From: Eledone cirrhosa
Lineage: Eukaryota
Assembly (NCBI GenBank): GCA_964016885.1
Contig: OZ024741.1
Coordinates: 279,496,001 to 279,560,000 of the forward strand
Length of the DNA: 64,000 nt
Direction of reading: 5' to 3'
Shown: positions 4,483 through 63,217 of the stretch, one piece after another
Position numbering within the stretch: the first letter of the stretch is position 1
Layout: every line of letters starts with the position of its first letter
Program-made: the position numbers and the translations under genes
The notes under the pieces: generated by a model
Seen by the model: the letters and a program-made list of their open reading frames with translations, nothing else
What the model was told of the DNA's origin: nothing
The model's database searches: none

Positions 4483-4803
4483 TGTACGTATGTATGGACT
4501 TGTAACTCTTGATAGAGTCATAAGGAGGTGTCGTTATATCAACATAGGGTATGTCATGGGCATTTTAAACCTGGTGAAGCCTATCACTCTCCAGGTCTGA
4601 ACACAGTCAATTTCTTCCAGAAAAGGGGAGAGGGAGGAAGTGAGTGAGGAAAAAATCAACCCCAGTAATGGATTGGTACATTTTTTTTATTCACCTAGAA
4701 AATATGAAAGGCAAAATTGCCTTTGACAGAATTTGAACAGAGCAGAGAGCCAAAACAAATACTGTAAAGCAGCCTTAGTGATTTGACATCAACTCGCACC
4801 ACC
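4483..4803 (-). mobile_element. tRNA-derived SINE, family B (same head/core as A, different 3' tail ending in (ATAC)n)
   Basis: Shares TGAAAGGCAAA...ATTTGAAC with family A but continues into the TTTAAACCTGGTGAAGCC...TCTGAACACAG tail. Other copies at about 18025-18290(+), 32885-33120(+), 34450-34722(-), 39453-39781(-), 42965-43510(-), 46697-47023(-), 62253-62600(+), 63850-64000(-). Confidence 0.75.
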
Positions 4804-5819
4804 TTTGCCCTGGTCTTCTTTAGTCTTCCTCTATTGTGGCTTCCCTGTATTTGGATTTCTCGACACTTCTTCACCTAGCAATCATCATCCATGTGCATCA
4901 CATGTCCATACCATCACAGTCTCCTCTCTTGCATAAATATTTCTCTAACACCATCAAACAGACACATGAATAACTATGCTTTATTGAGAAGGTTTAATAA
5001 GAGCAAAACATGTCTGGAGTTGTCACCATGTCTGCTAAGAATCTGGCTATCCTTCACCCTCTCCACATTATTTCCAATTAATCGGGATTCTGATGTGTCG
5101 CCTCCTTTTTTTAAAAATTAATTTCCTTTTAGATTTGAATTGTTTCCCCTGCCTTTGGTTTAGGTCACAGGTTCTGAACCCATTTAGGCCAAACGCTCCC
5201 TTTTGTCCCTCAAAATCACGAAACGCCCCCTACCCTATTTTTCCATTTTTCAATATACTACTGATTTTGATATCTGTAGATTACTAAAAAATTGATTATC
5301 AATATTCCAAAGATACCATTACAGGCAGCTGAGAAAGGAAATATATAAATTTCAAAAAAAGGAACATAAATGTTCTTTTTTATGAATACAGACCAGTTAA
5401 ATTTGTTATATTCCCACCAGTCGATACCAACTATTTTGAACATTTATACAAGAACAACTCTGTCTATCCAAAGAGTGCTCTTATCTGGAAGAAAGTGGCA
5501 ATTATATCATTTCAAAGCTTTCCAATTTTCCCTTTAATGAAACAGACAGAATAAATGTTGATATCTAACTTGATGTCCCCTCTGCTTTGTGAGCTTAGAG
5601 ACCACGGAAGAGGGTTTTCATGGCCACGCGGGAGGGTATATTTATTAGTAAATGGTAAAATATATACAACAAATGAGAAAGTGAATTGAAGTAGATGGTT
5701 TCCAGTTCAGTCAGACTGAAACTACAAATAAAAAAAATTGTTAGTTTGCTTTGTGACAATAGCATATCTAAGTTTTCGGATAAATCAACTTACTTTAACT
5801 TTGATCTCATTTCAATGGT

Positions 5820-6880
5820 ACCCTTGAACTTTATGGAGTCCAGCTAACTCTTTGACGTCAGGCTGGATTTTCCTAAGATGTAGCCGGAGATCTCCACATG
5901 TAATTACATTGTAGCGGTTGCGAGCCTTACTGTGCAGTCTGGAAACAGCACCAAACCTCCTCTTGACTAAGTATGAGCTTGGAAAAGGCAGAGTAAATAT
6001 CTTAGTCTCTGCATGTAGGTGTGGAAATCAACGCTGAATTTCCTCTTGCATCCAAAAAAGGGGTTCACCTATTTTTGGAAATCTAATTTTGATCATGTCA
6101 TCTGCTTGAAGTTCAATGAATTCTTCCTGAAATATAACGTCCAAATCATCGACGTTAACTGTGATAGGGATCTGCTACCCACATTGGGATGTCCATCGAC
6201 AAAAGGTCGACAAACCGTTCTCTCGTGTTGTCTTGTAGCGCACGGAGGCGAGCGGTATAAATTTGGAGTTGGTCATCGCTTACAATGTTTTGAACATTGG
6301 CGACACTAGGAAAATTATAGAATTCCCGTCAACAAAGATTCCTTTCGATGACATTCAATTTGGCCAGGAATGTTTTCACAGCATTCCTTGCTTTAAGCAA
6401 GGTGATCTTCTTCCCCTGCAAAGCCAAAATGACGCTATTGCATTTGTCGACGATGTCGGTGAGGTAGGCGCAGTTTTGCCTCACATCGAGGGTTTTCTTG
6501 TACAGTTCTGTGTTGCGTCCTCGCAGAAACTCAATGATAGAGTCAAACAGTTCAAAGAAGTGAGTAAGGTACTTGCCCTTTGAAAGCCACCTCACTTCAG
6601 TATGAAGGAGAAACTTGACGAATTCTTCGTCATTATCTTGGCACAGTTGCCGGAAAATTCGTTCATTGAGGGAATGGCGTTTGATAAAATTGATGACATC
6701 AAGGGCCACCTGTAAGGACTTGCTCAGTGGCTTGCTGAGTTTCTTCACAGCCAAGTGTTGTCGATGAATGACACAATGAACAACAAATACAGATAGATTT
6801 TCTCTCTTCAGAAGAGTGACGAAATCCTTATGTTGGCCGACCATTGCTCTAGCGTCGTCCGTAGCACATGATACAATGTG
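5820..6880 (-). pseudogene. hAT (Buster/Charlie-like) transposase remnant, C-terminal half
   Basis: CATDDARAMVG (CTDGA-like catalytic motif), HCVIHRQHL (CxxH), LLHTEVRWLS, and a dimerization-domain-like PFPSSYLV...RNR...DLRL near 5870-5990. Interrupted by stops and frameshifts; N-terminus missing. Confidence 0.88.
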
Positions 6881-7125
6881 TGTTGTATTTGATCCTAGAT
6901 GTATGTATTACCTGCCTGTGTGTTGTAGGTAGTCCTAGATGTATGTATTACCTGCTTATGTATTGCATGTGGTCCTAGATGTATGTATTACCTGCTTATG
7001 TATTGCATGTAGTCCTAGATGTGTGTATTACCTGCTTATGTGTTGTATGTGGTCCTAGATGTGTATATTACCTGCTTATGTGTTGTATGTGGTCCTAGAT
7101 GTGTGTGCTGCCCGCTTCTGTGTTT
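6881..7125. repeat. 40-bp minisatellite, about 6 copies, inside the hAT element
   Basis: Unit GTATGTATTACCTGCTTATGTRTTGYATGTRGTCCTAGAT recurs at 6901, 6941, 6981, 7021, 7061, 7101. Confidence 0.95.
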
Positions 7126-16030: not shown

Positions 16031-18547
16031 CAGCTGCTGGTCTTCCTCAAACAACCTTTCTCGGTGCAAATCCCATGACCGAAGGGGGAGGGCGTGCGTG
16101 TGTGTCACAAGTCACGTTTTAAATTTACACTGTGAAATATCTGTTTAAATTAATCATCAATTTACCTAACTTTGCAACACACCTAGAGATTATTGATGAC
16201 ACACTACACTTCAGTGTTGTGACACAGTTGTGATGAAAGCTCTGTTTTAGATATAAGGAGATGGAGGGGGGGGGGGTATGATGTTTGTTTGTGTGTATAC
16301 ACAATACAAATGGAGTGAAATAACTATGGCTGAGAATCAAATTCAGATTGTGAACTAGATTCGGGTTGAGAGTTTACAACTTAAACCGTTCTTGACATAA
16401 ATCTCAAGGTTTATTTGAATATGCTTTTGAGAGTGAAATCATTTCCCATGACTCAGAGCATAGAAATCAAGGTATAGTGTTCTCCACCCATGACATACAA
16501 AAGTGACCAATATGAAAATAGTTCTTACTCTGTACTATTGTTATTTTTCACACAAAAATGACTATTATCAAGATATTTCTTATTCTGTATTGTTTTACAC
16601 ACAAAAATATCATACCATGAAACTCTACATCTAACCCTTCTGATACAAAGACCACCTGAAACTACTACAGGCTCTACGAGAAAAAACATGCCATATCCTT
16701 GACCTAACTGAATGGTCCTTCCAACCCTTTGTTTGCCAACTTTCTATGGCTGGATGCCCTTCCTATCATCACCAACCACTTTACAGCATGTACAGAAAAG
16801 CTTATACGTTGAAGTTTCTTACTCCCAGCCCATCCCCAACATATTTAGAGTAGATCACCTAATCCGGGTCAGCCATATCAACCCATTTGAAGGTTTATTT
16901 GTCTTTTCTTCATTTCTTTTTGGCTATCATTTACCTACAAAGTCTTTATCAGATTGTCAAAACTAAGCAACACTGATCACAAATAGTCAACTAAAAATAT
17001 GAGCTCTTTGACAAAGAAAACACCCATCCTTGGAAAGAGAGAGTGTGTGCTCTCACACACATACTATTTCCCTTCTACCTACACACAAACACTAGAGTAA
17101 GAACAAATACTTGTTTATATTCATGTCCACTGAAAGGTTGTTTACTTTTCAATTTTTTTAAATAATTAAGAATTTTGAGAGATTTAGCAATGTAACTAAC
17201 TTCCTCATTAAGTCATTGTTTAGAACAATGAAAGTTCCTTACAAAAAATTATGGAGTTTTAATTTAAAGATGAACTCTTAAATATATTTTTTTTTCTTTC
17301 AATCAAAGAACTGAGTGCAGTTTCAAACAGTTTGGTATCAAAATGACTTAGCTGAACATCACCCACATCAATTTCACTAGTTTGTGTGAGGGCTTCAAAA
17401 GGTTGTGGGTCCTGCACATACTCCTTGACTAATCTAGAGAGAACAATTTTTATAAAAAGACATTAATGCACTTTTCTGGTTTATATTGTCGTTTTCTTGT
17501 ATGAGCTGAATGAAACAATTGAAAATACATTGGCAATTAAAATACTTTTCCAGTATAATGGTCCAGATTTTGGCAAATTCCCAGTCAATGATCATTTCAG
17601 AAATATGTAGATTTCAAAGAAAAGAACTCTTTCACCGGATATTGCTTTATAGGAGGAAACATTAGGTCTATCTAGCCATTAATTCAAACAACCACTCCAA
17701 AACCTTAGAGACAGATGTTAAGATTATTTCACTTCTCTTGAAATTCTCTTTTTTCAATTTACATTTTTATGTATCACATATCCAGTTACACATATATTCA
17801 AGTTAACATAGTAAAATACTAGCAACATATACAGTTACACATACATACATTCAGGCTGACATAGTAAAATACTAGCACATATACAGTTTAACAATACTGT
17901 CAGTGACTTGAACATCTGTTAACAAGATTTGACTCAAATATGGTTTTGAGAGGAGGGTAGCACCACTCACTAACTTTGGGAAAGTAAATTACACGCAAAC
18001 GCACACACATATATACACATGAACATTGGATAGAATGCTTTGAGTATTCATTCTGCACACAGTTTAAATACTGTTGAAGTTAACTTTTGCTTTTCATAGA
18101 TTTTGAGAATGATAAAAAAGATACCAGTCCAGTACTGGGTCAATTCTTCCTCACTTACTCTCTCTCTCACACTCTTTCCTTCTTTGGAAGAAACCAGCTA
18201 TGTTCAGACCTGGAGAAGAGATGAGTTCTACTAGGTTTAAATGCCCAAGATCTCCTATGTAATACAGTGCTGCTTCGACTACATCAGGATTTATGAGTCA
18301 TCATCATCATCGTTTAACGTCCATATTCCACGCTAGCATGGGTTATACACATATACACATGCACACACAAGCACATTTATATGTATCTATGTTTATGCAT
18401 ATGTATATGTACAAGTGTGTGTACATGCACATGTGCTTTCAAATGATTTAAATAAGCTTGCCAGCTACTACACGCACACTAGATTTAGAGGCATAAATAC
18501 CCAACATGGATCTCTGATATACTACTACTTTGAATAATAATAATAAT

Positions 18548-19820
18548 GATTTCATTTATTAGCCACAAGGGCCGACATGTAGGGGACAATACAAAGACAG
18601 GGACAGTGGGGGTTTACAATAAGGTCGAGTAAAAGTGCACAATGGCAAGACTAATTTAACAATGAAAATATAAAAATATAAAATAAACTATGCATAAATA
18701 TAACAAAATAAATTCCCCGATAGGGGGTGGACAACCTGGGGTGATTCGGGTACCCCACCAATCCTGAACCACCCTGCGCTTCTAGGGCACCCAGGGAGAG
18801 CACCCCTCTCCTCAAGTTAGCCAGCCTATAGGCGCATGGTCAGAGCCATTCTCGCCACATTCACCCACCTTTTAGCAAATGTACTGGGGGGGCAGCACTT
18901 CTCTCTCTCTCCACCCTCACCCTCCTTTCCAGGTGAAACTTGAAGAAGTTGATGAGGGATTGGCCGAAGAGAAAAGTGTCTGTCTTTAGTCCTTTCAACC
19001 TGGTCCACCATATAATCTCTTTCGCACCTGCCACCAGACAGAGGAAAATTTCCTGCTCTTCCTGACCTAAGGAAGGCGGTGGATCGATCTTCACTATGGA
19101 CTCGGCCGATAGCCGGATTCGTTTCACACGCGACTGTAGCTGTTCGACATAACTCCACAAGTCAGTAATGCACGGACATTGGACAAGTGCGTGCAAAACG
19201 GTTTCGTCGTTCTGTGCGCATCTTGGGCAGGTCCGTCTGACAGCACTTCCGTGCCTGTAGAGTTTATCCCGAACCGGCAGTGCCCCCCGGTAGCACTGCC
19301 AAGCGAGGAATTTCTGGAAATTGTCCATCGTCCCCGGCTAGAAAGTCCTCCGGTACAGACTGGTCAGTTCGACTTCGTCGAGGCCCAAAGCTTCTCCGAG
19401 TGCGTCATCGCACTTGCCCACCACTAATCCTCTATAGAACTCGAGAGTGGAAGTTCCACTGATCGCGTTGCCCGCTTGGTAGAGGGCAGTGAGTGCCTGG
19501 CAACATTCCAGGTGCCAGTCACCCAGTCTCGGTCTCTTCTTGTCCCAGGACTGCAGCTCAGTCAAAGAAACGAGCTGCGGAAAGGCCCGTCTGATAAACG
19601 GCGACCACACCTGTTCACCATTGAGGCAGAATATCTGGAGATGTTGCAGCCTCAACGCATGTCTGCGCATCATTAGCCACGGCATGCCCAGCCCTCTGCG
19701 TAGAGGGTGCTGGCAGCAGATGGACCGCCTCACCAACGGAACTTGTCCCCTCCACAAGAATTTGAAGAGGAGCCGTTCCAACTTGACAAGGCGCGGACGG
19801 GGGCAAGGCATGGCAGGGCA
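18548..19820 (-). mobile_element. 5'-truncated L1/Tx1-like LINE with (ATT)n tail
   Basis: ORFs 19338-19853 and 18861-19328 encode LFKFLWRG...HPLRRGLGMP and a zf-RVT-like WQCYRGALPV...TCPRCAQNDETVLHALVQC. The 3' UTR ends GGCCCTTGTGGCTAATAAATGAAATC(ATT)n; the 5' junction abuts (ATT)5. Confidence 0.85.
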
Positions 19821-19835
19821 AATAATAATAATAAT

Positions 19836-20306
19836 GGTTTCTTTATTAGCCACAAAGGGCTTACATTAATATGACAATAAGGACAGTACAGTGTTGGTTT
19901 TTTTGTTTGAGGGAAAGGTTCATAAAGAGGACTAAAAAATAAACATTTAAAATAAAAACAAATTCTCTAAAAGTAGAGATACCTCTGAGGGTCCCTCTTA
20001 GAGATAGACCACAAAAAGCCATGGTAAGCTTGACCGCTAGGGTAGGTGCCCACTTTCAGTGTCCTCCTCCAATTTACAGAGCAAGCCCATTCACTCAGAC
20101 CATGCTTCCTTCTCTCACCCACTTTCCAACAAACAGGTTCGAAGGTGGCATTTCCTCTTCAGGTGAAATCTGAAAAAGTTAATCAGGGTTTTGCCGAAGA
20201 GGAAAGGGCTTGTCTTCAAACCTTTCAGGCGTGTCGACCACACAATCTCTTTTGTCATGGCCACCAGGCAGATAAAAACTGCCTATCCTTCCTCACTAAA
20301 GGAAGC
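19836..20306 (-). mobile_element. Second, shorter L1/Tx1-like LINE 3' fragment
   Basis: 20100-20306 aligns by eye with 18890-19076. Same 3' terminus, GCCCTTTGTGGCTAATAAAGAAACC(ATT)5. Confidence 0.8.
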
Positions 20307-20325
20307 TGACGATAGTAGTAATAAT

Positions 20326-20499
20326 TGTTTCTACTTTTGGCACAAGGCCAGTAATTATCCCAGTGTATTACTGGTACTTTATTTTATCGACCCCGTAAGG
20401 ATGAAAGGCAAAGTTAACCTCAGTGGGATTTGAACTCAGACCATAAAGGGCCGTAACTTTGCTGCAAAGCATGGCATCCGACCCTCTACCGATACTGCC
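20326..20499 (-). mobile_element. SINE family A copy
   Basis: Near-complete head, core and tail; (AAT)n at 20501-20512 and TAGTAGTAATAAT at 20313-20325. Confidence 0.88.
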
Positions 20500-20857
20500 T
20501 AATAATAATAATTTCACAATCATTATCAAAACACTAACCTTTCATAAAAATCCTTAATAAAACAACACATTATATCTTATAATCCATAGTTAAATCAAAT
20601 GAAGAAAACATGCATAGCAGCCCTTGGCTCTACCTACAATAAATCCCTCTAGTTATGATATCTCTCTAACATACAGATACCATGAGATCTCTAACATACA
20701 GATATCATGATATCTCTTACATATGGATATCATATCTCTGACAAAGATTCAGATATTAAAAATAGAAAAAATAAATAGTTGTGATATTCATATCATTCTC
20801 AAGAGCAATGTAAGTGAAAAACCTTAGTCAGGTTTATTTTATTAGATTGCAAGTTTT

Positions 20858-27243: not shown

Positions 27244-29572
27244 GACAGAGAAAACAGATATGAAGGGACCGGGAAAACAGATATGAAGGGACCGGGAAAA
27301 CAGATATGAAGGGACCGGGAAAACAGATATGAAGGGACAGGGAAAACAGATATGAAGGGACAGGGGAAACAGATATGAAGGGACAGGGAAAACAGATATG
27401 AAGGGACCGGGAAAACAGATATGAAGGGACCGGGAAAACAGATATGAAGGGACCGGGAAAACAGATATGAAGGGACAGGGAAAACAGATATGAAGGGACA
27501 GGGAAAACAGATATGAAGGGACAGGGAAAACAGATATGAAGGGACAGGGGAAACAGATATGAAGGGACAGGGAAAACATATGAAGGGACAGAGAAAACAG
27601 ATATGAAGGGACCGGGAAAACAGATATGAAGGGACAGGGAAAACATATGAAGGGACAGAGAAAACAGATATGAAGGGACAGAGAAAACAGATATGAAGGG
27701 ACAGAGAAAACAGATATGAAGGGACAGGGGAAACAGATATGAAGGGACAGGGAAAACAGATATGAAGGGACAGGGGAAACAGATATGAAGGGACAGGGAA
27801 AACAGATATGAAGGGACAGGGGAAACAGATATGAAGGGACAGGGGAAACAGATATGAAGGGACAGGGAAAACATATGAAGGGACAGAGAAAACAGATATG
27901 AAGGGACAGAGAAAACAGATATGAAGGGACCGGGAAAACAGATATGAAGGGACAGGGAAAACAGATATGAAGGGACAGGGAAAACAGATATGAAGGGACA
28001 GGGAAAACAGATATGAAGGGACAGGGGAAACAGATATGAAGGGACAGGGGAAACAGATATGAAGGGACAGGGAAAACAGATATGAAGGGACAGGGAAAAC
28101 AGATATGAAGGGACAGGGGAAACAGATATGAAGGGACAGGGAAAACATGAAGGGACAGAGAAAACAGATATGAAGGGACCGGGAAAACAGATATGAAGGG
28201 ACAGGGAAAACATATGAAGGGACAGAGAAAACAGATATGAAGGGACAGAGAAAACAGATATGAAGGGACAGAGAAAACAGATATGAAGGGACAGAGAAAA
28301 CAGATATGAAGGGACAGGGGAAACAGATATGAAGGGACAGGGAAAACAGATATGAAGGGACAGGGAAAACAGATATGAAGGGACAGGGAAAACAGATATG
28401 AAGGGACAGGGAAAACAGATATGAAGGGACAGGGAAAACAGATATGAAGGGACAGGGAAAACAGATATGAAGGGACAGGGAAAACATATGAAGGGACAGA
28501 GAAAACATATGAAGGGACCGGGAAAACAGATATGAAGGGACAGGGAAAACATATGAAGGGACAGAGAAAACAGATATGAAGGGACAGAGAAAACAGATAT
28601 GAAGGGACAGAGAAAACAGATATGAAGGGACAGAGAAAACAGATATGAAGGGACAGGGGAAACAGATATGAAGGGACAGGGAAAACAGATATGAAGGGAC
28701 AGGGAAAACAGATATGAAGGGACAGGGGAAACAGATATGAAGGGACAGGGAAAACAGATATGAAGGGACAGGGGAAACAGATATGAAGGGACAGGGGAAA
28801 CAGATATGAAGGGACAGGGAAAACATATGAAGGGACAGAGAAAACAGATATGAAGGGACAGAGAAAACAGATATGAAGGGACCGGGAAAACAGATATGAA
28901 GGGACAGGGAAAACAGATATGAAGGGACAGGGAAAACAGATATGAAGGGACAGGGGAAACAGATATGAAGGGACAGGGGAAACAGATATGAAGGGACAGG
29001 GAAAACAGATATGAAGGGACAGGGAAAACATATGAAGGGACAGAGAAAACAGATATGAAGGGACAGAGAAAACAGATATGAAGGGACAGAGAAAACAGAT
29101 ATGAAGGGACAGAGAAAACAGATATGAAGGGACAGGGAAAACATATGAAGGGACAGAGAAAACAGATATGAAGGGACAGAGTAAACAGATATGAAGGGAC
29201 AGAGAAAACAGATATGAAGGGACAGAGAAAACAGATATGAAGGGACAGGGGAAACAGATATGAAGGGACAGGGAAAACAGATATGAAGGGACAGAGAAAA
29301 CAGATATGAAGGGACAGAGAAAACAGATATGAAGGGACAGGGGAAACAGATATGAAGGGACAGGGAAAACAGATATGAAGGGACAGGGAAAACATATGAA
29401 GGGACAGAGAAAACAGATATGAAGGGACAGAGAAAACAGATATGAAGGGACAGAGAAAACATATGTAGGGACAGAGAAAACAGATATGAAGGGACAGAGT
29501 AAACAGATATGAAGGGACAGAGAAAACAGATATGAAGGGACAGAGAAAACATATGAAGGGACAGAGAAAACA
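27244..29572. repeat. 23-bp purine-rich minisatellite, about 100 copies
   Basis: Unit AAAACAGATATGAAGGGACAGGG with variants (ACCGGG, ACAGAG, ACAGGGG, and a 21-bp unit lacking GA). No spacers. Confidence 0.99.
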
Positions 29573-29703
29573 AAAATGTTCTGACATCTATACTATTTAA
29601 ATGAGTGTTAGCAAAGTGAAACTTTTCCAGTCAATAGTTCAGAGCAAGTCACAGGCTACATTGATACATAAAAACTCTGCTGAAGTAGACATAGCTGTAA
29701 AGT

Positions 29704-29941
29704 CCACTTCACAAACACACTGTTCAAGGTTTGATTGCAATAGTTCACTTCACAAACATACTGTTCAAGATTTGATCTCAGAATCTTACTTCACAAACAC
29801 ACTGTTCAAGGATTGATCCCAGAAGTTCACTTCACAAATACACTGTTCAAAGTTTGACCCATTAGTTCACTTCACAAACACACTGTTGAAGGTTTGATCC
29901 CAGAACTTCACTTCACAAATACATTGTTCAAGGTTTAATCC
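29704..29941. repeat. About 40-bp minisatellite, about 6 copies
   Basis: CACTTCACAAAYACACTGTTCAAGGTTTGATCCCAGAAGTT-like units. Confidence 0.9.
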
Positions 29942-39200: not shown

Positions 39201-41507
39201 AGCAAATGTAGCCTATATCAATTATTTCATTTAGTAACATAACTGAAAGGGTTCTTATATCAAATTATGTTGGAAGATTTTAATTTGAATAGAAACTCTT
39301 TGAAAAGGGCAGATTGGTATCAAAAGGATTAAAATATTAAGTAAGACTATACACATGATTGCTATACATAAACATTATATACATGAATCCATATAAACCT
39401 CTGAGGTCCCCCTCCCCCACCTATGGACTTCCCTTTATTTATAGTACAAATGGTATGAACCCATAACTTCTGATGGAATCATAGGGGCACTGTAGTGACA
39501 TACAGCATTTCTTGGACACTTTAAACCTGGCAAAGCACATCCCTCACCATGTCTGAACACAGCAGATTTCTTCCCGAGAAGGGTAGAAAGTGAGAGAAGA
39601 AATGAGAAAGCAATATAGAGGAAGAATCGATCCCAGTACTAAACTGGTACATTTTTTTTATCAACCTGGAAAGGGTGAAAGGCAAACATGATCTCGGCAG
39701 AATTTGATTCAGAGAACAGTGAGCCAGAATGATACTGAAAAGCATTCTATCTGACATTCTAATGACTGCCAATTCGCCACCTTTAATACTAATAGTGAAG
39801 AAACACCCCAACAATCCTTCAATTGATAGGTGACCACTCCTATTGATACCAACTAGGAGTAATTTTATTAGTGTTGGCCGGGGGGGGGGGGGGGCTTCTT
39901 TGCCCACTTATTCCTGGGAGGGTCATGGGGGAAGAGTCCTGAAACACTCCTTCCAGCAGGTCCTGTCAGAAGCAACCATTTCCAACTGATCTGGCTGGAT
40001 CCCCAAGCAAGACCAACTGAGCTCATGGATGTTATCCAACCATTTTACAGACTATATCCAAAAATAAAGGAAACTCCATACATAGTAACATCATTTTGTA
40101 TTTGATGTAAAGAGCTTTGGCAGGAATTAGCCAAGTCATTTTTAGTATATCCAACATATTTCCTAGCATCTGCAGCTCTCCCAGAATTTATATATATTTT
40201 ATAGCACCTAAAAATAGTTCTCCCAGAATTTATATATATTTCATAGCACCTAAAGATAGCTCCCCCAGAATTTATATGAGAACTATCTAGAATACTATCA
40301 TCTCTGCTATTTTTGTCGTCACCATGTTCTGACCAACACAGATACAATCGTTTGCAGAAGTCAACTTATATTCCAATATTCTTCACATTGCCTACACAAA
40401 TTAAACTTTGCTAATGATTCTCTTTTCTTGTCAATCTGACAGCTATCAAAAGATAATTACATATAAGTTCCTTCCTGATCAAGACATTGATAGTCAACAT
40501 CATCATCTTCATCATCAACATCACTGTTTAACGTCTATTTTCCATACTTGCATGGGTTAGATAGGTCGTCATGTACATATTGGTCAGGTGACTACGTCTA
40601 GCTCATGCTCATATCTATCTAATGAAATCTTATCAAAATCTGACCTCATCATTAGACTGAAATCAACCTAGCTTACAGTGAGGGATGGGGGCAGGGTTTT
40701 ATGTGGTTGTTTGATATGCTAGAAATAGCACCTAAATCTCCCTCAAATCATGCCCTATTGTTTTATTAGTTTCAATGAATGATGCATATCTGAAAAGACA
40801 AGATGGCTAGCCATGGTTAGATCACCTTTTTGATCATAAATCTGCTTGATCAGGAGTTGACCTGGGGTTAAACAACAATTTTACCCATCATATCAGAGAA
40901 TCTAGACTTTTGTCCCACCTAAATAATTGAAGGTACTTCGTTAGGTGCAATGGTATTGATAATAAAGAAATTCAAAATAAAATGTGATTTGAAAAAGAAA
41001 AGGGGGGAGAGGGGAGTGAGAAAAGAACAATTCTGAGTAAACAACCACTGAATAGATATTCATTTCATTTTCAAAAGGGCAAAAGAAACAATCAGTTCCA
41101 ATGGGATTCTAAACCAAAGAGGAAACCAAATATTGAAATACATCTTCCTGTAACCTATTATACCAGTTAACCCAATATCCTGTACCACAGGAAACCACAT
41201 TAGTAAGACTTCTTGGAAAAGTACAAAACAACACTATGACTGCATCACATTAAAAATTAAAGTATTTACTCTAAAATTGCAAATTTTCACAATGTGTCCA
41301 TTGGAATTAACAAACCACATTTAGCAAAACATTCTTGAAAAAATACAAAACTACTATAACTACATCATATTAAATAGTATAGTCTTTACTTTAATACTGC
41401 AAATTTTCAAAACAATCTATCCATTAGTATATATAAACATTTGAATTAAAAAATACTTCTTAAATATTTTCTGCTAAATAATTATAGGAAGTTAAAATGT
41501 GCATGTG

Positions 41508-42410: not shown

Positions 42411-45400
42411 TATCTTACTACAGTGAGTTATTTCTATTCTACATAATGTCACCAATCTAACTTCATACTTTGTAACACTTCCTTTACCTGTCACACAGTG
42501 ACTGTCTTTCTGTTATCAACCTCTGTTTACACAACACTCATCCACACATTACCTTAACCCTTTCATTACCGTATTTCTAATGAAAGAACATTGTCTATAA
42601 TGTTCAAATCATTTTGAAAATAATCAGGAATTTAACCAAATACTGGGACCTGACAAACTGTTCCCTTTTTATGCCGATCACCATCAACACCTCTAATGCC
42701 CTTCATCCCCGAACTGCTGTTTTTGTCTGCAAAATTGGGAAGAGTGCATCCCACCCGAGAAAGGAACTGTGCGAGTTAGAGTGGCTGATATAGTGGGCAT
42801 CACTGGCTGTTCTCTGCTTATTTGAGGAATATTTTGCTGTTATTTCTAATATGCCAAACACCACACAGGCTGTCTCATTGGCTAAAACCTCTTGTTACTG
42901 TGTTCCAATTAATTTACAAAAATATTTGGAGGAAATTAAAACAAATAACCAACTGTTTCATTAATATGTATGGTCCCATAACTCCTGAGGTAGTCGTAGA
43001 GGTACCACATTGACATACAGCGTTTCTAGGGTATTTTTAAACCTGGTGGAGCCCATCTCCTCTATAGGTTTGAATACAACAGATTTCTGCCAGAGAAGGA
43101 TAAAGTGAGGAAATGAAGAGATATAGAGGAAGAATCAACCCCAGTACTAGATTGGTACTTTTTTGTTAGTAACCAAGTTGTATTGTATGTATGATCCTGA
43201 ACTCCCGAGGGAGTTGTAGGGATGCCACATTGACATACAGCATTTCTAAGGAATTTTTAAAACTTGGCAGTCCATCTCCTCTCCACATCTAAATACAACA
43301 GATTTCTTCCAGAGCGAGAGTGAGAGAATGGAAGTGAGAAACAGATATAGAGGAAGAATCAACCCCAGTATTTGATTGGTACTTTATCAAACTCCAATGG
43401 ATGAAAGGCAAAGTTGACCTTGGCAGGATTTGAACTGAGAAGGCAGAGAACCAGAACAAATACCACAAAGCATTCTATCTGACGTTCTAATGACTGCCAA
43501 TTCACCACTTTGTATTTAATATAAACATTTTAATATGAGCAGTTTTGTATCATAAACCCAAGGTGGTTTCAGGTGGTTTGGTATGAAGGGTTAAAATGCT
43601 AAACATTCACAAATAGTAATAAAAATGATAGCTCAACTCAAATTACATGGAATTCTACTAATATAAACTATCCGGGTCAGCATTATATTTCTACAGAGCT
43701 AAACTTAAGTGGTAGCCTGGTAGCTAAAGTCAGTAGAGCAGTGAACAAAAAATGCCTGCAGTATTTAGTTGCAGTACTTTATGTTCATGATTCATATCCT
43801 ACTGAGGTCAACTTTGGTTTTCATCCTTCTAGGGTTGATAAAATAAAATGGTAGAGAAGTACTGAGGATAATTTAATATTTCTAAATGTGAATGGAATTA
43901 TAATAGAATAAAAGACTATCACTAACTAACTTAAGATTCTTATAAGTTCAATTTTTTTTTTTTTTTTTTTTTTTCAAGGGACTGAATGGATCGATCAACA
44001 AGCTCCCAAATTTCATCTGTTTACCAAGTTGAGTGTAACTTGTCAAATTGAACCAAAGAAACAATGTTACCATTGATCTTTCCATTGCTGATACTATCTA
44101 CTTGCAAACTATCGATTGTGAATCTAATTCTCCAACCACTAAGCCACACATGAGCCTTCACTTCAAGAGATTAGCTTGTTATGAAAATTTCATTTCTGTC
44201 TTTTCTCATTTACTTTCTGTGCTATTCCTTTCAGAATTTCTAGCCTTTTTTGTGGCATTTTTCTTTCTTCTAACTAATTGTAATAGACCAAGAAAAAACT
44301 CAAACTAAAAACAAGATTTATTAAATAAGTCAGCAAAAAGAGGCAAAACCCATATTCTTAGCTAACTGGTGAAATTAATGTCAAACATCTTCACAAGTCA
44401 ATGTTCACAGAAAAATCACCATCATTGTTTTAACGTCCGTTTTTCCATGCTTGCATGGGTTGGAAAGGTTTTTTACTGTACAGCATCTCTGCCTTCATCG
44501 CATTCCTTCATAATTTCTAAATATTATTTAGAAACAAATTTTTCGTTCAGTAGGTTACTCATATTAAATGAAATTACAGACTGACAATTACAGATTCTTA
44601 ATCATAATTTATCTTACTTTTGTTTTTAAGTTTTATAGATTTTCTTCCTGATAATAGATGCTTTATAATTCTAATTTAATCTCTTACTCATCATCATCAT
44701 TTTACATCCGCCTTTGCCATGCTGACTGACATGGACAAAATATTTATTTCTCCCAGTCCATTCTGTTGTGTGGCAGTACATGCCACAAAATGGTTAGCAT
44801 TATTAGGGGCATAGACGTCCCTTTACATTCTGAGTTCAAATTTCGTTGAGGTTAGCTTTGCCTTTCATCCTTACAGGGTCGATAAAATAAAGTACTAGTA
44901 ATACATCGGGATCGATTTAATCAACTTCCCCCTCCCACCAAATTGCTGGCCTTATGCCTAAATCAGAAACCAATATTTTGATATTTAAAATGTTTTAAGT
45001 GTCATTTAGAGTACAGTTTTTGTTTCACAACTCCATTACATAAGTTACTATTGTGTTAAGTTTCAACAAGTTGATTTTGTGTTAACTTCCCAGTCACTCC
45101 CAGTTTCAAAGCAAAAAAAAAAAATTGAATAAACGAACTTTGTATAGGGATTCATTGATTAGAAGAGTGAGGGAGAGACAGCGAGGGAGGGAGAGACAGC
45201 AAGGGGAGGGAGAGACAACAAGGGAGAGCGAATAGAAGCAGTGTGAGAAGAGCGAGCAAGAGTAATAAAAGAAAATCAAGAGATTGAAAGAAAAAAATAT
45301 TATCAGAGAAAAACGAGAGTGTATGTGTATGGGATATTCATTATGTGTTAAGTTCAAATTATAAAAAATTGTAAATATTTTCAAGGGAATGCATATATAT

Positions 45401-47219
45401 AATGCCAACAATGATGTAAATGTAGAAAAACAGTGTTTCATAGTAAAATAATCACTCCAGATAGTTTAGCACCTTATTTAGGTAGAATTTGAAATGTCAA
45501 AATATTGATCCCAACTTGTATTTATATATATATGGCCAGGCTTGCTTCTCGGCATGGATGACCTGTCTAACCCATGCAAGCATGGAAGAAGTGACACTAA
45601 ACAGAAATTATACACACACACACACAGGTTACTCATAACTAAACATACAATTCAGTTAGTCAACATTTATCTATATGGATGAAGGGTGGGGTGCAAATAG
45701 CCATGCCAGTTAACCTAGATAAGATGTTCCCACTCTTCCCCATGGCCTAAACAAGTAAGGTCAGCTCAGCCACTAAATAGGTTATCAAATTATAAATGGA
45801 GATTTTTTTTTCCTCCTCCTAATGTAAATTCAACACAACAAAGTTAAATTTGACAATAGTGAGAGATTTACTGCCAATGAGTTGTAAAGTTGTTTAGTTC
45901 TAAATCAATCACAATCCAGGAGAAAGTTTTCAATGGAAAAATGATAGAATGAGAAAAAACATCAAATAGTGAAAGTAAGGGAAAGGAAGGAGAAAGACTG
46001 CTCTGTGAACAAAATGACAAAGGTATTGCCACAGAGAACAGCCAGTGACACCCACGGCATCAGTCACTCTATTTTAATAGATTATAGTTAAGATTCTTTC
46101 ACAAAGGATGCACTGCTTCCAATTTTGTGGAGGAAAACAGCAGAGGTCATGTCCTGGTATTATCATAAAAGGCATTTCAGTATTAACTCCCCTCGTGTCA
46201 TTTTGTTATTTTAAATGGTTGGATGTGATTTGAGATTTGGTAGTTGTTTCTAGCAGGTCAAGTGACCATGTAGTGACACCTACATCGACTGTTGTACTGT
46301 TTTAATTGATGTTGTCAAATATCCAGCCCTACTTGAGCCAGATAAAAGTAACAAGCAAACATTTAGAAGTGACTCACAGCTTCATCACACTAAGTATACC
46401 ATGTTTCTGTCTAAGTGTTTGTATGGACATAAAGATAGAATTCAACTCATTTCATACCAATCTGCCCAAAATTTCTCCTGGTTCTACAATACCAAACTAT
46501 TTGTTTTAAAGTGTTTGTTAATATTTTTATAAAACTTTCCTTCATAATTAATTACATGTAAGAGCCTTTGTTAAGTTGTGTTCCAAACACCAGCTTGATA
46601 ATGAGAAAGTTAGTTATTAAATCCCTCCAAATTCTTGATAATTTTCAAAATTATTTGAAAATCATACCATAGGCAGTGTCTATTATATTGATGCATGCAT
46701 GGTCCTGTAACTCCTGAGGAAGCCATAGGGGCACCATATTGACATACAGCATTTTTAGGTCATTTTCTTTTTCAAAACCTCATGGAGCCCATATCTCCAG
46801 GTCTGAATACAGCAGATTTCTTCCAGAGAAGGATAGAGAGTGAGAGAATGGAAGTAAGAAAGAGATATAGAGAAAGAATCTATCCCAGTACTTGACTGGT
46901 ACTTATTATTATCAACCTTGAATGGATGAAAGGCAAAGTTGACCACAATGGGCTTTGAACTCGGAGAGAAGAGAGATGGATTGAATACTGCAAAGCATTC
47001 TATCCGACTGCCAATTCGCCACCTTACTTTATATTGATAGATTGGTTTAAAATAGTTGTTTTGCTGAAGTTCAGGGTCAATTTGTTTTAAATGGTGGTAT
47101 TCGTGTTTTGTGAAACTTTAAAATAGTAAGTGATAATTCAATGCAGGATCAAAACTAAAATATAAGTACTTTGAGCAAAGACATTTTAAATGGTAATAGT
47201 TAATAAATAAATAAATAAT

Positions 47220-47395
47220 TGTTTCTACTTTAGGCACAAGGCCAGCAATCACCCAGTGCATTACTGGTACTTTATTTTATCGACCCCGTAAGGATGAAAG
47301 GCAAAGTCAACCTCGGCGGGATTTGAACTCAGATCATAAAGGGACGTAACTATGCTGGAAAGCATGACGTCCGACCCTCTACCGATACTCCCAAT
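47220..47395 (-). mobile_element. SINE family A copy
   Basis: Well-preserved head, core and tail; AAT-rich on both flanks. Confidence 0.88.
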
Positions 47396-49353: not shown

Positions 49354-49775
49354 GGTGGATTGGCAGTATCGGTAGAGGGTCGGACGCCATGCTTTGGCGC
49401 ATAGAGTTATGGCCCTTGCCATTCTGAGTTCAAATCCCGCCGAGGTTAACTTTGCCTTTCATCCTTACGGGGTCGATAAAATAAAGTACCAGTAATACAC
49501 TGAAATAATTGCTGACCTTGTGCCAAAAATAGAAACAGTTATTATTATTATTATTATTAGTATTATTTTTGTAAGGCAGTAATGAACAACATGCTTTGCA
49601 GCATCTAGTTAAAGCCCTTTATGTTCTGAGTTCAAATCCCACCAAGGTTACTGTTGCCTTTCATTCTTACAGTGTCAATAAAACAAAGCACGAAACGCAC
49701 TGGGTCAATTTAACCGACTTTCCCTTCCCCCAAAATTGCCGGCCTTGTGCCTAAATCAGAAACTATTATTATTAT
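49354..49775 (+). mobile_element. Two head-to-tail SINE family A copies separated by (TTA)n
   Basis: Copy 1 at 49354-49537 (A-box TGGCAGTATCGG, B-box GAGTTCAAATCC), (TTA)n to about 49567, copy 2 at about 49571-49763 plus (TTA)n. Confidence 0.88.
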
Positions 49776-62047: not shown

Positions 62048-62251
62048 CTACTGGGTTGTACTTGTTTGGCAAGTTGAGATCTGATACTGTATGGAAACTT
62101 AAACCACTACCTCAGGGAAGAATCATTTTAACACCATTTATTTATGAACACACAAAAACTGTTTTTATTCAATTTTTGTTTATTTCTTAACAGTTAAAGT
62201 CTATTATCAAGTGTCAAAACTTTGTATGCACCTTTGTAACCTGTTTACAAA

Positions 62252-62600
62252 GGTGATAAATTGGCAGAGTCATTAGAACATCAGATAGAATGCTTTGCAG
62301 TATTCGTTTCAGCTCTCTGTTCTGAGTTCAAATCCTACTGAGGTCAACTTTAGAGGTTGATAAAAAAAAAAAAGTACCAGTTTAGTACTGGGGTTGATTC
62401 TTCTTCTATATCTCTTTCTCATTTCCATTCTCTCACTCTCTATCTTTCTCTGGAAGAAATCTGCTGTATTTAGATGTGGAGAGGAGATGGACTGCCAAGT
62501 TTTAAAAATGCCCTAGAAATGCTGTTGTCAATGTGACACCCCTACAACTAACTCCCTTAGGAGTTACAGGATCATACATACAATACAACCTGGTTGCTGA
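62252..62600 (+). mobile_element. SINE family B copy, near full length
   Basis: TGGCAGAGTCATTAG head, GAGTTCAAATCC B-box, AAGTACCAG core end, long tail ending GGATCATACATAC. Confidence 0.8.
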
Positions 62601-63217
62601 CACAATCCTACACAATCTATTTCACATGGGAACAAGTCTTTTTTTGGGGGGGGGGGGTCTATTATGTAACTTAATATATTTAATAAATATTTTTTGTTTT
62701 AATCAGTTCCTGTAAGTGATGGAATCTCTAGGTAGATTTTTATTTTATTTTATCTATTTATTTATCTTATTTACCACATATACTTGAGTAATAGATGATC
62801 TCATGCCAACCCTCTTATTTTGGGCCAAAAAATCTGGAATTTTCCATAGACCTCATATAAAAGCCGACCCTAGTATTTCATGGATAATGGGTCAACATTT
62901 GTGAGTCAAGGTATCATCCTGTATGTAAAAATACCACTGTTACAAAATCATTCTGAATTTAAGTCAAATCTATATTATTGCAAATACATGTCTAAAACTC
63001 AAGATTTACCCAAACAGATGCCTGCCCTATAGCTGGAATGCTTCATGCTTATACCGGAATGCTTGGTGCACATAGTAAAAAAACATATAATAGCAAGCAC
63101 TACATCTGTAGATGGATGCTACATCTACATTATTAAAATCTAGCACAAGATGTGCTGCAAGCTTGCAGCCAATCTCATTTCCAAAAACAAACACATGCAT
63201 CAGCACTCATCTCATGG

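What the first reader, a model, noticed from the sequence alone, without database searches (positions are those of the whole stretch)
18533..20512. Tx1-like LINE and a SINE share one 3' end and stack head-to-tail in (ATT)n: a self-seeding microsatellite-targeting pair
Seen on the minus strand: (ATT)n, SINE A, ATT-like linker, Tx1 fragment, (ATT)5, longer Tx1 fragment, (ATT)5. Each 5' junction sits on the previous element's tail. The LINE ends GGCCCTTGTGGCTAATAAATGAAATC(ATT)n and GCCCTTTGTGGCTAATAAAGAAACC(ATT)n resemble the SINE ends GGCCTTGTGCCAAAAGTAGAAACA(ATT)n and GGCCTTGTGCCTATATAAGAAACC (34-57). Several SINE A copies have ATT/AAT on both flanks (31-243, 1723-1878, 20326-20499, 47220-47395, 49354-49775). 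Known: SINEs borrow 3' ends from the LINEs that mobilise them, and several Tx1-clade families are sequence-specific, including microsatellite targeters. Inference: an (ATT)n-specific Tx1 family mobilises SINE A, and each insertion regenerates its own target, building tandem arrays.
Basis: partly seen in the sequence, partly recalled or inferred. Interest (0 to 1): 0.72.

Follow-up and report, generated by a model that had tools for sequence, protein, structure and literature searches.

The report
ATT-targeting LINEs and their borrowed SINE
In what is likely an octopus-group genome, a family of jumping genes inserts into ATT repeats and ends in the same short motif as a very abundant short repeat, which likely borrows its copying enzyme but mostly lands in ordinary short ATTAT sites rather than in the repeats.

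Summary
The stack is real: (ATT)4, SINE, ATT-like linker, old Tx1-like fragment, (ATT)5, young Tx1-like fragment, (ATT)5, all on the minus strand. The two LINE pieces belong to different families. The young one is a 5.9-kb APE/RT/zf-RVT element. It targets (ATT)n: 29 of 55 5' junctions against 0.3% background and 0 of 55 for AAT, with filled and empty sites seen. Several Tx1-like families and the SINE share a 27-nt end: predicted 4-bp hairpin with CUUGU loop, then GAAA, then ATT. Four rival LINE ends scored no better than random DNA. In random regions only 1 of 50 copies has (ATT)3 upstream; its target duplications are unique and start with ATTAT. The array also grew in both directions, and other elements supply many ATT tracts. 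Microsatellite-targeting Tx1 and Tx1-mobilised SINEs are known; a shared structured tail in an animal L1/Tx1 pair was not found in six searches. Mobilisation is inferred. The scan reported this pair twice before, on other DNA of this genome.

The parts
20501..20512 (-). (ATT)4, upstream copy of the target duplication
20326..20500 (-). SINE, short subfamily, about 12 nt truncated at 5'; 150,743 exact copies of its 24-nt tail in the genome
20338..20350 (-). Predicted SINE 3' hairpin: TGGC / CTTGT loop / GCCA, 12 nt before the ATT tail
20314..20325 (-). ATTATTACTACT linker: degenerate ATT tract between SINE and fragment C
19836..20313 (-). Tx1-like family C, 478-nt 3' fragment (ORF2 C-terminus and 3' UTR); old family, other copies 70-80% identical
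19848..19861 (-). Predicted family C hairpin: AGCC / 6-nt loop / GGCT, followed by AATAAA
19821..19835 (-). (ATT)5, tail of fragment C and target of fragment A
19811..19820 (-). About 10 nt at the 5' junction of fragment A that do not match the family reference copy
18548..19810 (-). Tx1-like family A, 1.26-kb 3' fragment (positions 4636-5910 of a 5.9-kb element); zf-RVT domain; one in-frame stop and a frameshift, so a dead copy of a young family
18561..18573 (-). Predicted family A hairpin: GGCC / CTTGT loop / GGCT, followed by AATAAA, 13 nt before the ATT tail
18533..18547 (-). (ATT)5, tail of fragment A

Best explanation
A group of Tx1-like L1-superfamily LINEs inserts on one strand of ATT-rich sites, mostly (ATT)n tracts, and likely also copies the SINE, whose RNA ends in the same predicted CUUGU hairpin and ATT tail. 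Shown: domain content, target bias, filled and empty sites, shared 3' end, target duplications, same-strand stacking. Inferred: the ORF2 endonuclease nicks opposite an ATTAT site, ORF2 recognises the hairpin, and the AUU tail pairs with the nicked strand to prime reverse transcription. A 9-21 nt duplication then leaves ATT on both sides, so later copies can land in front of or behind an older one, always in the same orientation. The SINE uses any ATTAT site and piles up at (ATT)n only where such tracts exist. In this window family C came first; the SINE entered its upstream ATT and family A its tail.
For: Full-length 5.9-kb element with ORF1 (441 aa frame) and ORF2 (1143 aa frame: Exo_endo_phos, RVT_1, zf-RVT). 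Of the first 57 of 1,128 exact family A tails, 55 had the 5' junction in view: 29 have a perfect ATT-phase repeat of 9+ nt within 30 nt, AAT control 0, background 0.28%; near-full-length 8 of 8, truncated 21 of 47. Empty versus filled ATT tract in an RTE 5' UTR: 7 units (L234) versus 5+8 units around the LINE (L192). Tail scores against two SINE ends: four Tx1 ends are matched by 0.025-0.25% of random 27-mers, CR1-like by 5-14%, R4/Dong-like and Penelope-like by 55-87%. In 16 chosen ends the CxxTGTG core and GAAA are conserved; 3 of 4 stem pairs change on both sides. SINE duplications: 12 of 62 are 12+ nt against 0.33 in shuffled pairing; 17 of the 20 that are 9+ nt start ATTA/TTAT/TATT. SINE follows 18 of 57 family A and 14 of 23 family C tails.
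Against: No mobilisation assay. The shared stretch is only about 27 nt. The hairpin is no more stable than shuffles (z -0.71 to +0.31), its outer pair is broken in 8 of 16 ends, and the structure was read from these same related sequences. No LINE carries the SINE's exact stem: a pattern joining it to AATAAA gave 4 hits, all SINEs. LINE and SINE differ sharply in target: 29 of 55 versus 1 of 50 with (ATT)3 upstream; 45 of 57 versus 7.8% followed by (ATT)4. 26 of 55 family A junctions lack (ATT)3. The survey of rival LINEs covered only families met in my fetched loci; a LINE with up to a few thousand SINE-identical tails could have been missed.
Confidence: 0.7

Rival explanations
1. The SINE is copied by another ATT-tailed LINE (for example the CR1-like family), and its likeness to the Tx1 end is an old relic or convergence.
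For: A CR1-like family ends in (ATT)n with 4,520 exact tails, more than the 1,128 of family A. The SINE's loose targeting differs from family A's.
Against: The CR1-like end scores like random DNA against the SINE. Of 30 CR1-like copies, 16 had a usable 5' junction by my reading of the table (13 broke at an internal repeat or where the reference copy diverges, 1 was out of view): none had (ATT)3 upstream or an ATTAT-starting duplication. Of 162 SINE-type tails in fetched DNA, 155 had a SINE body; the other 7 looked like short or decayed SINEs. The one RTE 3' end followed to its end is unrelated by eye.
Confidence: 0.15
2. One reading: LINE and SINE are both (ATT)n-specific and form a closed loop, each insertion making the target for the next, stacking in order on the previous tail.
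For: Same-strand neighbours 18 of 57 against 0 of 57 opposite. A filled site has 4-6 more ATT units than empty ones. 11,766 SINE tails carry (ATT)4, ten times the family A tail count. 13 of 55 family A copies lie within 160 nt behind a Tx1 or SINE tail.
Against: 1 of 50 random SINE copies has (ATT)3 upstream and 0 of 17 duplications are pure ATT. Only 7 of 41 random (ATT)4+ tracts directly follow a SINE or Tx1 tail by pattern; a few more do by eye. The SINE also follows 4 of 30 CR1-like tails. The oldest element of the window's stack is in the middle.
Confidence: 0.1
3. No active targeting: elements insert widely and survive or collect in ATT-rich junk regions, and ATT flanks are just tails of neighbours.
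For: 26 of 55 family A junctions lack (ATT)3; many elements in this genome end in ATT.
Against: Strict strand bias (AAT 0 of 55), 8 of 8 near-full-length copies and 10 of 10 full-length top hits flanked by ATT at the exact 5' end, and insertions inside ATT tracts whose empty state is known.
Confidence: 0.05

Closest known systems
Kibi, Koshi and crocodilian microsatellite-targeting Tx1 families (PMC4494074, PMC3812793; passages read)
   Same: APE-type L1-superfamily LINE inserted preferentially into one microsatellite; passes that paper's 20% criterion for target specificity.
   Different: Those target (TC)n, (TTC)n, (TTCC)n or (TTTC)n in vertebrates; here the target is the ATT strand in a likely octopod. 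No named Kibi or Koshi protein was available for the tree.
SINEU with Tx1-Mar in crocodilians (PMC4494074; passages)
   Same: A SINE assigned to Tx1 machinery by shared target preference; tandem insertions around a target duplication; SINE preference can be weaker than the LINE's.
   Different: SINEU has a poly(A) tail and the paper found no LINE similar to the SINEU-1 3' half; here a 27-nt end with a predicted hairpin is shared and the target is ATT.
Stringent LINE/SINE pairs with a 3' stem-loop: zebrafish ZfL2 (PMC4176376, abstract); maize ZmSINE2/3 with LINE1-1_ZM (PMC3472496, passages)
   Same: Conserved loop, variable paired stem, short distance to a terminal repeat.
   Different: PMC3472496 found only 3 of 58 SINEs with L1-clade tails, all plant or algal. 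Here the pair is animal and Tx1-like; binding is untested and the hairpin is weak.
Dong/R4 elements targeting (TAA)n (PMC3812793, passages)
   Same: Same microsatellite; two R4/Dong-like families with TAA tails sit tail-to-tail with 7 of 57 family A copies.
   Different: Opposite strand, restriction-like endonuclease (motif recalled), unrelated 3' end.

Membership tests
L1 superfamily non-LTR retrotransposon | ORF2 with APE endonuclease, RT and C-terminal CCHC (zf-RVT) | tested here: met
   Pfam PF03372, PF00078, PF13966 above cut-off; best solved relative is LINE-1 ORF2p, E 3e-56, against R2 at 1e-18
L1 superfamily non-LTR retrotransposon | Separate ORF1, 5'-truncated copies, target duplications | tested here: met
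   ORF1 frame of 441 aa; 47 of 55 copies truncated; duplication of 9+ nt in 27 of 55, 20 of them pure ATT and so not diagnostic
Tx1 clade | RT groups with named Tx1 families (Tx1, Keno, Kibi, Koshi) | tested here: inconclusive
   41-row RT tree: families A and B form a supported group with an Argonauta hians protein and unnamed proteins, inside an unresolved 36-row L1/Tx1-like group that holds one TX1-annotated coral protein; no named Tx1 family or vertebrate L1 was in the tree
Tx1 clade | ORF1 with a CCHC zinc knuckle (feature recalled) | tested here: met
   CX2CX4HX4C visible in the ORF1 translation; no Pfam hit at E 0.01
Target-specific non-LTR element | One sequence type in more than 20% of flanks (criterion of PMC4494074) | tested here: met
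   Family A: 29 of 55
Target-specific non-LTR element | Endonuclease cuts the target sequence specifically | not testable with these tools
   Needs a cleavage assay
Microsatellite-targeting SINE | (ATT)n in more than 20% of 5' flanks | tested here: not met
   1 of 50 random copies with 9+ nt; 20 of 50 with 6+ nt against 4.9% background
tRNA-derived SINE | tRNA-related head with A and B boxes | tested here: inconclusive
   A- and B-box-like motifs seen by eye (recalled consensus); no Rfam tRNA match; ARAGORN 0 genes in 4 loci
Stringent LINE/SINE pair | Shared 3' end with conserved stem-loop | tested here: met
   only 27 nt and 4 pairs, folding not above shuffles
Stringent LINE/SINE pair | ORF2 binds the stem-loop and needs it for retrotransposition | not testable with these tools
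   Needs binding and cell assays
Octopus OK/OR1/OR2 SINEs (Ohshima and Okada 1994; name seen in PMC4758252 and PMC5804259) | Sequence identity to the published families | not testable with these tools
   No SINEBase, Repbase or Dfam sequences on hand

The most novel reading that the evidence does not exclude
One animal Tx1-type enzyme reads a CUUGU hairpin and yields two target ranges from two RNAs: long (ATT)n tracts for its own long-tailed RNA, any ATTAT site for the short-tailed SINE. Target specificity would then be set largely by RNA tail to DNA pairing rather than by the endonuclease, and a sister subfamily with the same hairpin but a TATC/TA tail would be a target switch caught in the act.
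Probability: 0.25. Interest if true: 0.72.

Novelty: new variant of a known kind. Interest (0 to 1): 0.45.

Why it matters
It names a likely driver for a SINE with over 150,000 exact tails in this genome. It would be a rare animal case of an L1/Tx1-type LINE sharing a structured 3' end with a SINE, which bears on the idea that relaxed RNA recognition in mammalian L1 is derived. The gap between LINE and SINE target ranges gives a natural test of endonuclease versus RNA-pairing control of site choice. It also explains compound ATT/AAT arrays in which Tx1-like and R4/Dong-like elements meet from opposite strands.

Tried and rejected
Rfam and ARAGORN on the SINE head: nothing usable. Single-strand folding of five tails: hairpin present but not above shuffles. 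Pattern for a LINE with the SINE's exact stem: 4 hits, all SINEs. SINE head pattern (31,312 hits) was not used for flank counts because many hits are 45-bp minisatellite units. The 5' ends of families B, D, E, G all had ATT upstream (14/14, 8/8, 3/3, 2/2), but most were found as neighbours of family A tails, so they are not independent evidence. Family C 5' boundaries were too uncertain to count. The top-scoring SINE and LINE hits were not used for the main flank counts; one locus was printed on the wrong strand. One random region (L268) was dropped because it touches a family A locus; L195 was a mistyped region and unused as a sample. Template jumping as the source of LINE-then-SINE neighbours was considered: several SINEs have their own duplications (L117, L292, L295), so separate insertions are more likely. 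Protein searches gave no named Tx1 family for the tree.
Full report
Observation. The minus strand reads (ATT)4, SINE (20326-20500), ATTATTACTACT, a 478-nt LINE fragment (19836-20313), (ATT)5, about 10 extra bases, a 1.26-kb LINE fragment (18548-19810), (ATT)5. The longer fragment carries a zf-RVT domain and an in-frame stop. The two fragments are 74% identical in their shared coding part and belong to different families, here called C and A.

Host and element. The genome is 3.0 Gb. The closest named relative of ORF2 is an Argonauta hians protein, 62% identical over about 500 residues, so the host is likely an octopod; this is inference. Family A is young: the 39 other listed hits are 95-96% identical to the window copy, and 1,128 places carry its exact 27-nt end. 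Ten of 20 extended top hits reached the 5' end of a 5.9-kb element with ORF1 and an ORF2 of APE, RT and zf-RVT. In an RT tree of 41 rows, families A and B form a supported group within an unresolved L1/Tx1-like set; no named Tx1 family could be included. I call it Tx1-like.

LINE targeting. I took the first 57 exact-tail copies in positional order on one chromosome; 55 had the 5' junction in view. Twenty-nine have a perfect ATT-phase repeat of 9+ nt within 30 nt of the junction, none has AAT, and the background is 0.28%. Near-full-length copies score 8 of 8 and truncated ones 21 of 47. An RTE family carries ATT tracts in both UTRs, which gives empty and filled versions of one site: 7-9 units empty, 5+8 units around a family A copy. 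So the tract existed before insertion and grew by about one duplication length. The other 26 junctions lack (ATT)3; among the top hits some such junctions are inversions, deletions or chimeras, but I did not resolve these 26.

Shared end. At least five Tx1-like families (A, B, C, D, F) end in a short stem, a CTTGT-type loop, AATAAA and GAAA; A to D continue into ATT. The SINE has the same loop and GAAA at the same spacing but lacks AATAAA. Against two SINE ends, four Tx1 ends were matched by 0.025-0.25% of 20,000 random 27-mers (a null that includes SINE copies); CR1-like, R4/Dong-like and Penelope-like ends by 5-87%. On 16 ends that I chose, 86% of stem cells pair and 3 of 4 pairs change on both sides. 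Against this: the stem was read from these sequences, they are related, the outer pair fails in 8 of 16, and folding energy is not above shuffles. The hairpin is a prediction.

SINE targeting. In 59 random 10-kb regions plus the window, 113 SINE-like segments gave 62 with a recognisable tail. Among the 50 outside the window, 1 has (ATT)3 upstream (background 0.27%, p=0.13) but 20 have 6+ nt of ATT phase (background 4.9%; AAT 7). Seventeen have exact duplications of 9-21 nt, 14 starting ATTA/TTAT/TATT and none pure ATT. Across all 62, duplications of 12+ nt number 12 against 0.33 in shuffled pairing. The window itself is unusual: 4 of 12. Genome-wide, 11,766 of about 150,743 exact SINE tails (7.8%; the two patterns differ by one base) are followed by (ATT)4, against 45 of 57 for family A. 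The SINE therefore targets ATTAT, not microsatellites as such.

Stacking. A same-strand SINE starts within 130 nt behind 18 of 57 family A tails, none on the opposite strand, about 1% expected. The same holds for 14 of 23 family C tails (23 of 29 had a readable tail) and 4 of 30 CR1-like tails. Other neighbours of family A tails are 5' ends of other Tx1-like families (6), R4/Dong-like tails on the opposite strand (7) and RTE 5' UTRs (2). Of 41 random (ATT)4+ tracts, 7 directly follow a SINE or Tx1 tail by pattern, 9 adjoin CR1-like, Penelope-like or Dong-like ends, and 22 got no label, a few of them decayed element ends by eye. Self-seeding is real but partial. In the window, family C is oldest (other copies 70-80% identical) while the SINE (93-97%) and family A (96%) are young, so growth most likely went both ways from the middle.

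Rivals. The CR1-like family also ends in ATT and has 4,520 exact tails. Its end does not resemble the SINE's, and none of 16 usable junctions showed (ATT)3 upstream or an ATTAT-starting duplication (14 of 30 set aside). Of 162 SINE-type tails in fetched DNA none sat on a recognisable LINE body. This survey is incomplete.

Mechanism. Shown: domains, target bias, shared end, duplications, orientation. Inferred from target-primed reverse transcription and from stem-loop recognition in ZfL2 (PMC4176376, abstract): nick opposite ATTAT, hairpin recognition by ORF2, priming through AUU pairing. The longer tail of the LINE (median 6 units against 2) may explain its stricter target, but older or looser Tx1 subfamilies, or selection against 6-kb insertions elsewhere, could do so too.

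What is known. Kibi, Koshi and crocodilian Tx1 families target TC-rich microsatellites, Dong targets TAA, and SINEU is assigned to Tx1-Mar without a shared tail (PMC4494074, PMC3812793; passages). Only 3 of 58 SINEs with LINE-derived tails had L1-clade partners, all plant or algal (PMC3472496, passages; also PMC3747384, passages). An Octopus vulgaris annotation lists 13 recently active L1-Tx1 and 5 Dong-R4 families; I read its first third, which says nothing on targets or partners (PMC13282606). Six full-text searches listed no paper on an ATT-targeting Tx1 or on this pair. I did not open the figures or supplements of these papers (Tx1 target list, table of 58 pairs) and had no Repbase, Dfam or SINEBase, so it may be catalogued there. 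Clade labels for CR1, RTE, Penelope and R4/Dong rest on recalled motifs plus Pfam RT/APE hits; the Penelope-like frame had no Pfam hit.

Earlier notes. Two unreviewed notes on other pieces of this genome reach the same pairing and hairpin. I had noted and tested both before the look-up. They are not independent support.

Verdict. A real and well-supported ATT-targeting Tx1-like group with a likely partner SINE: a new variant of known kinds. The added result here is that the SINE's target is much looser than the LINE's. Interest 0.45.

Noticed in passing
L145:4423-4472 (+), L280:5726-5775 (-): A Tx1-like subfamily with the same 3' hairpin and AATAAA is followed by TATC/TA repeats instead of ATT: possible target switch. 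Two copies seen.
   Followed up: no
L004, L009, L018, L050 and others: Two R4/Dong-like families with (TAA)n tails sit tail-to-tail with Tx1-like copies and form their own tandem arrays, so two unrelated endonuclease types use one microsatellite from opposite strands.
   Followed up: partly
L176 (G000:C1 about 1.767 Mb) and G000:C1 about 10.32-10.34 Mb: The first 45 nt of the SINE head form long tandem minisatellite arrays (sequence checked at L176; the other inferred from hit spacing).
   Followed up: partly
L232-L245, L192, L210, L114, L229: An abundant young RTE family carries ATT tracts in both UTRs, and these are repeatedly occupied by Tx1-like and Dong-like copies.
   Followed up: partly
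L034:3900-4100; L048: An RTE 5' part joined directly to a Tx1 family A 3' part (possible template switch or recombination); L048 has a 5' inversion.
   Followed up: no
L005, L007, L126: Some family A tails read ATT then (CTT)n instead of (ATT)n (L005 and L126 are the same place).
   Followed up: no
L320-L349: The CR1-like family has a 111-nt duplication of its 3' end separated by an ATT-like tract in 8 of 30 copies.
   Followed up: partly
window 27244-29572 and 29700-29941: A 23-bp satellite of about 103 copies and a 41-bp repeat.
   Followed up: no
window 6332-6907 (-): Open frame resembling a DNA-transposase fragment (by recall only).
   Followed up: no
window 4488-4771, 18021-18260, 33000, 34500, 39450-39780, 42950-43510, 46700-47000, 62250-62620: An older SINE family with a related head and middle but a longer, different 3' part, some copies with a duplicated segment.
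   Followed up: no
L046:464-2971 (+): Ty3/gypsy-like pol frames (by recall) upstream of two tandem family A copies; observed only.
   Followed up: no
P0044 cluster (Patella caerulea): Eleven near-identical related ORF2 proteins with consecutive locus tags, suggesting a tandem array of a related element in a limpet.
   Followed up: no
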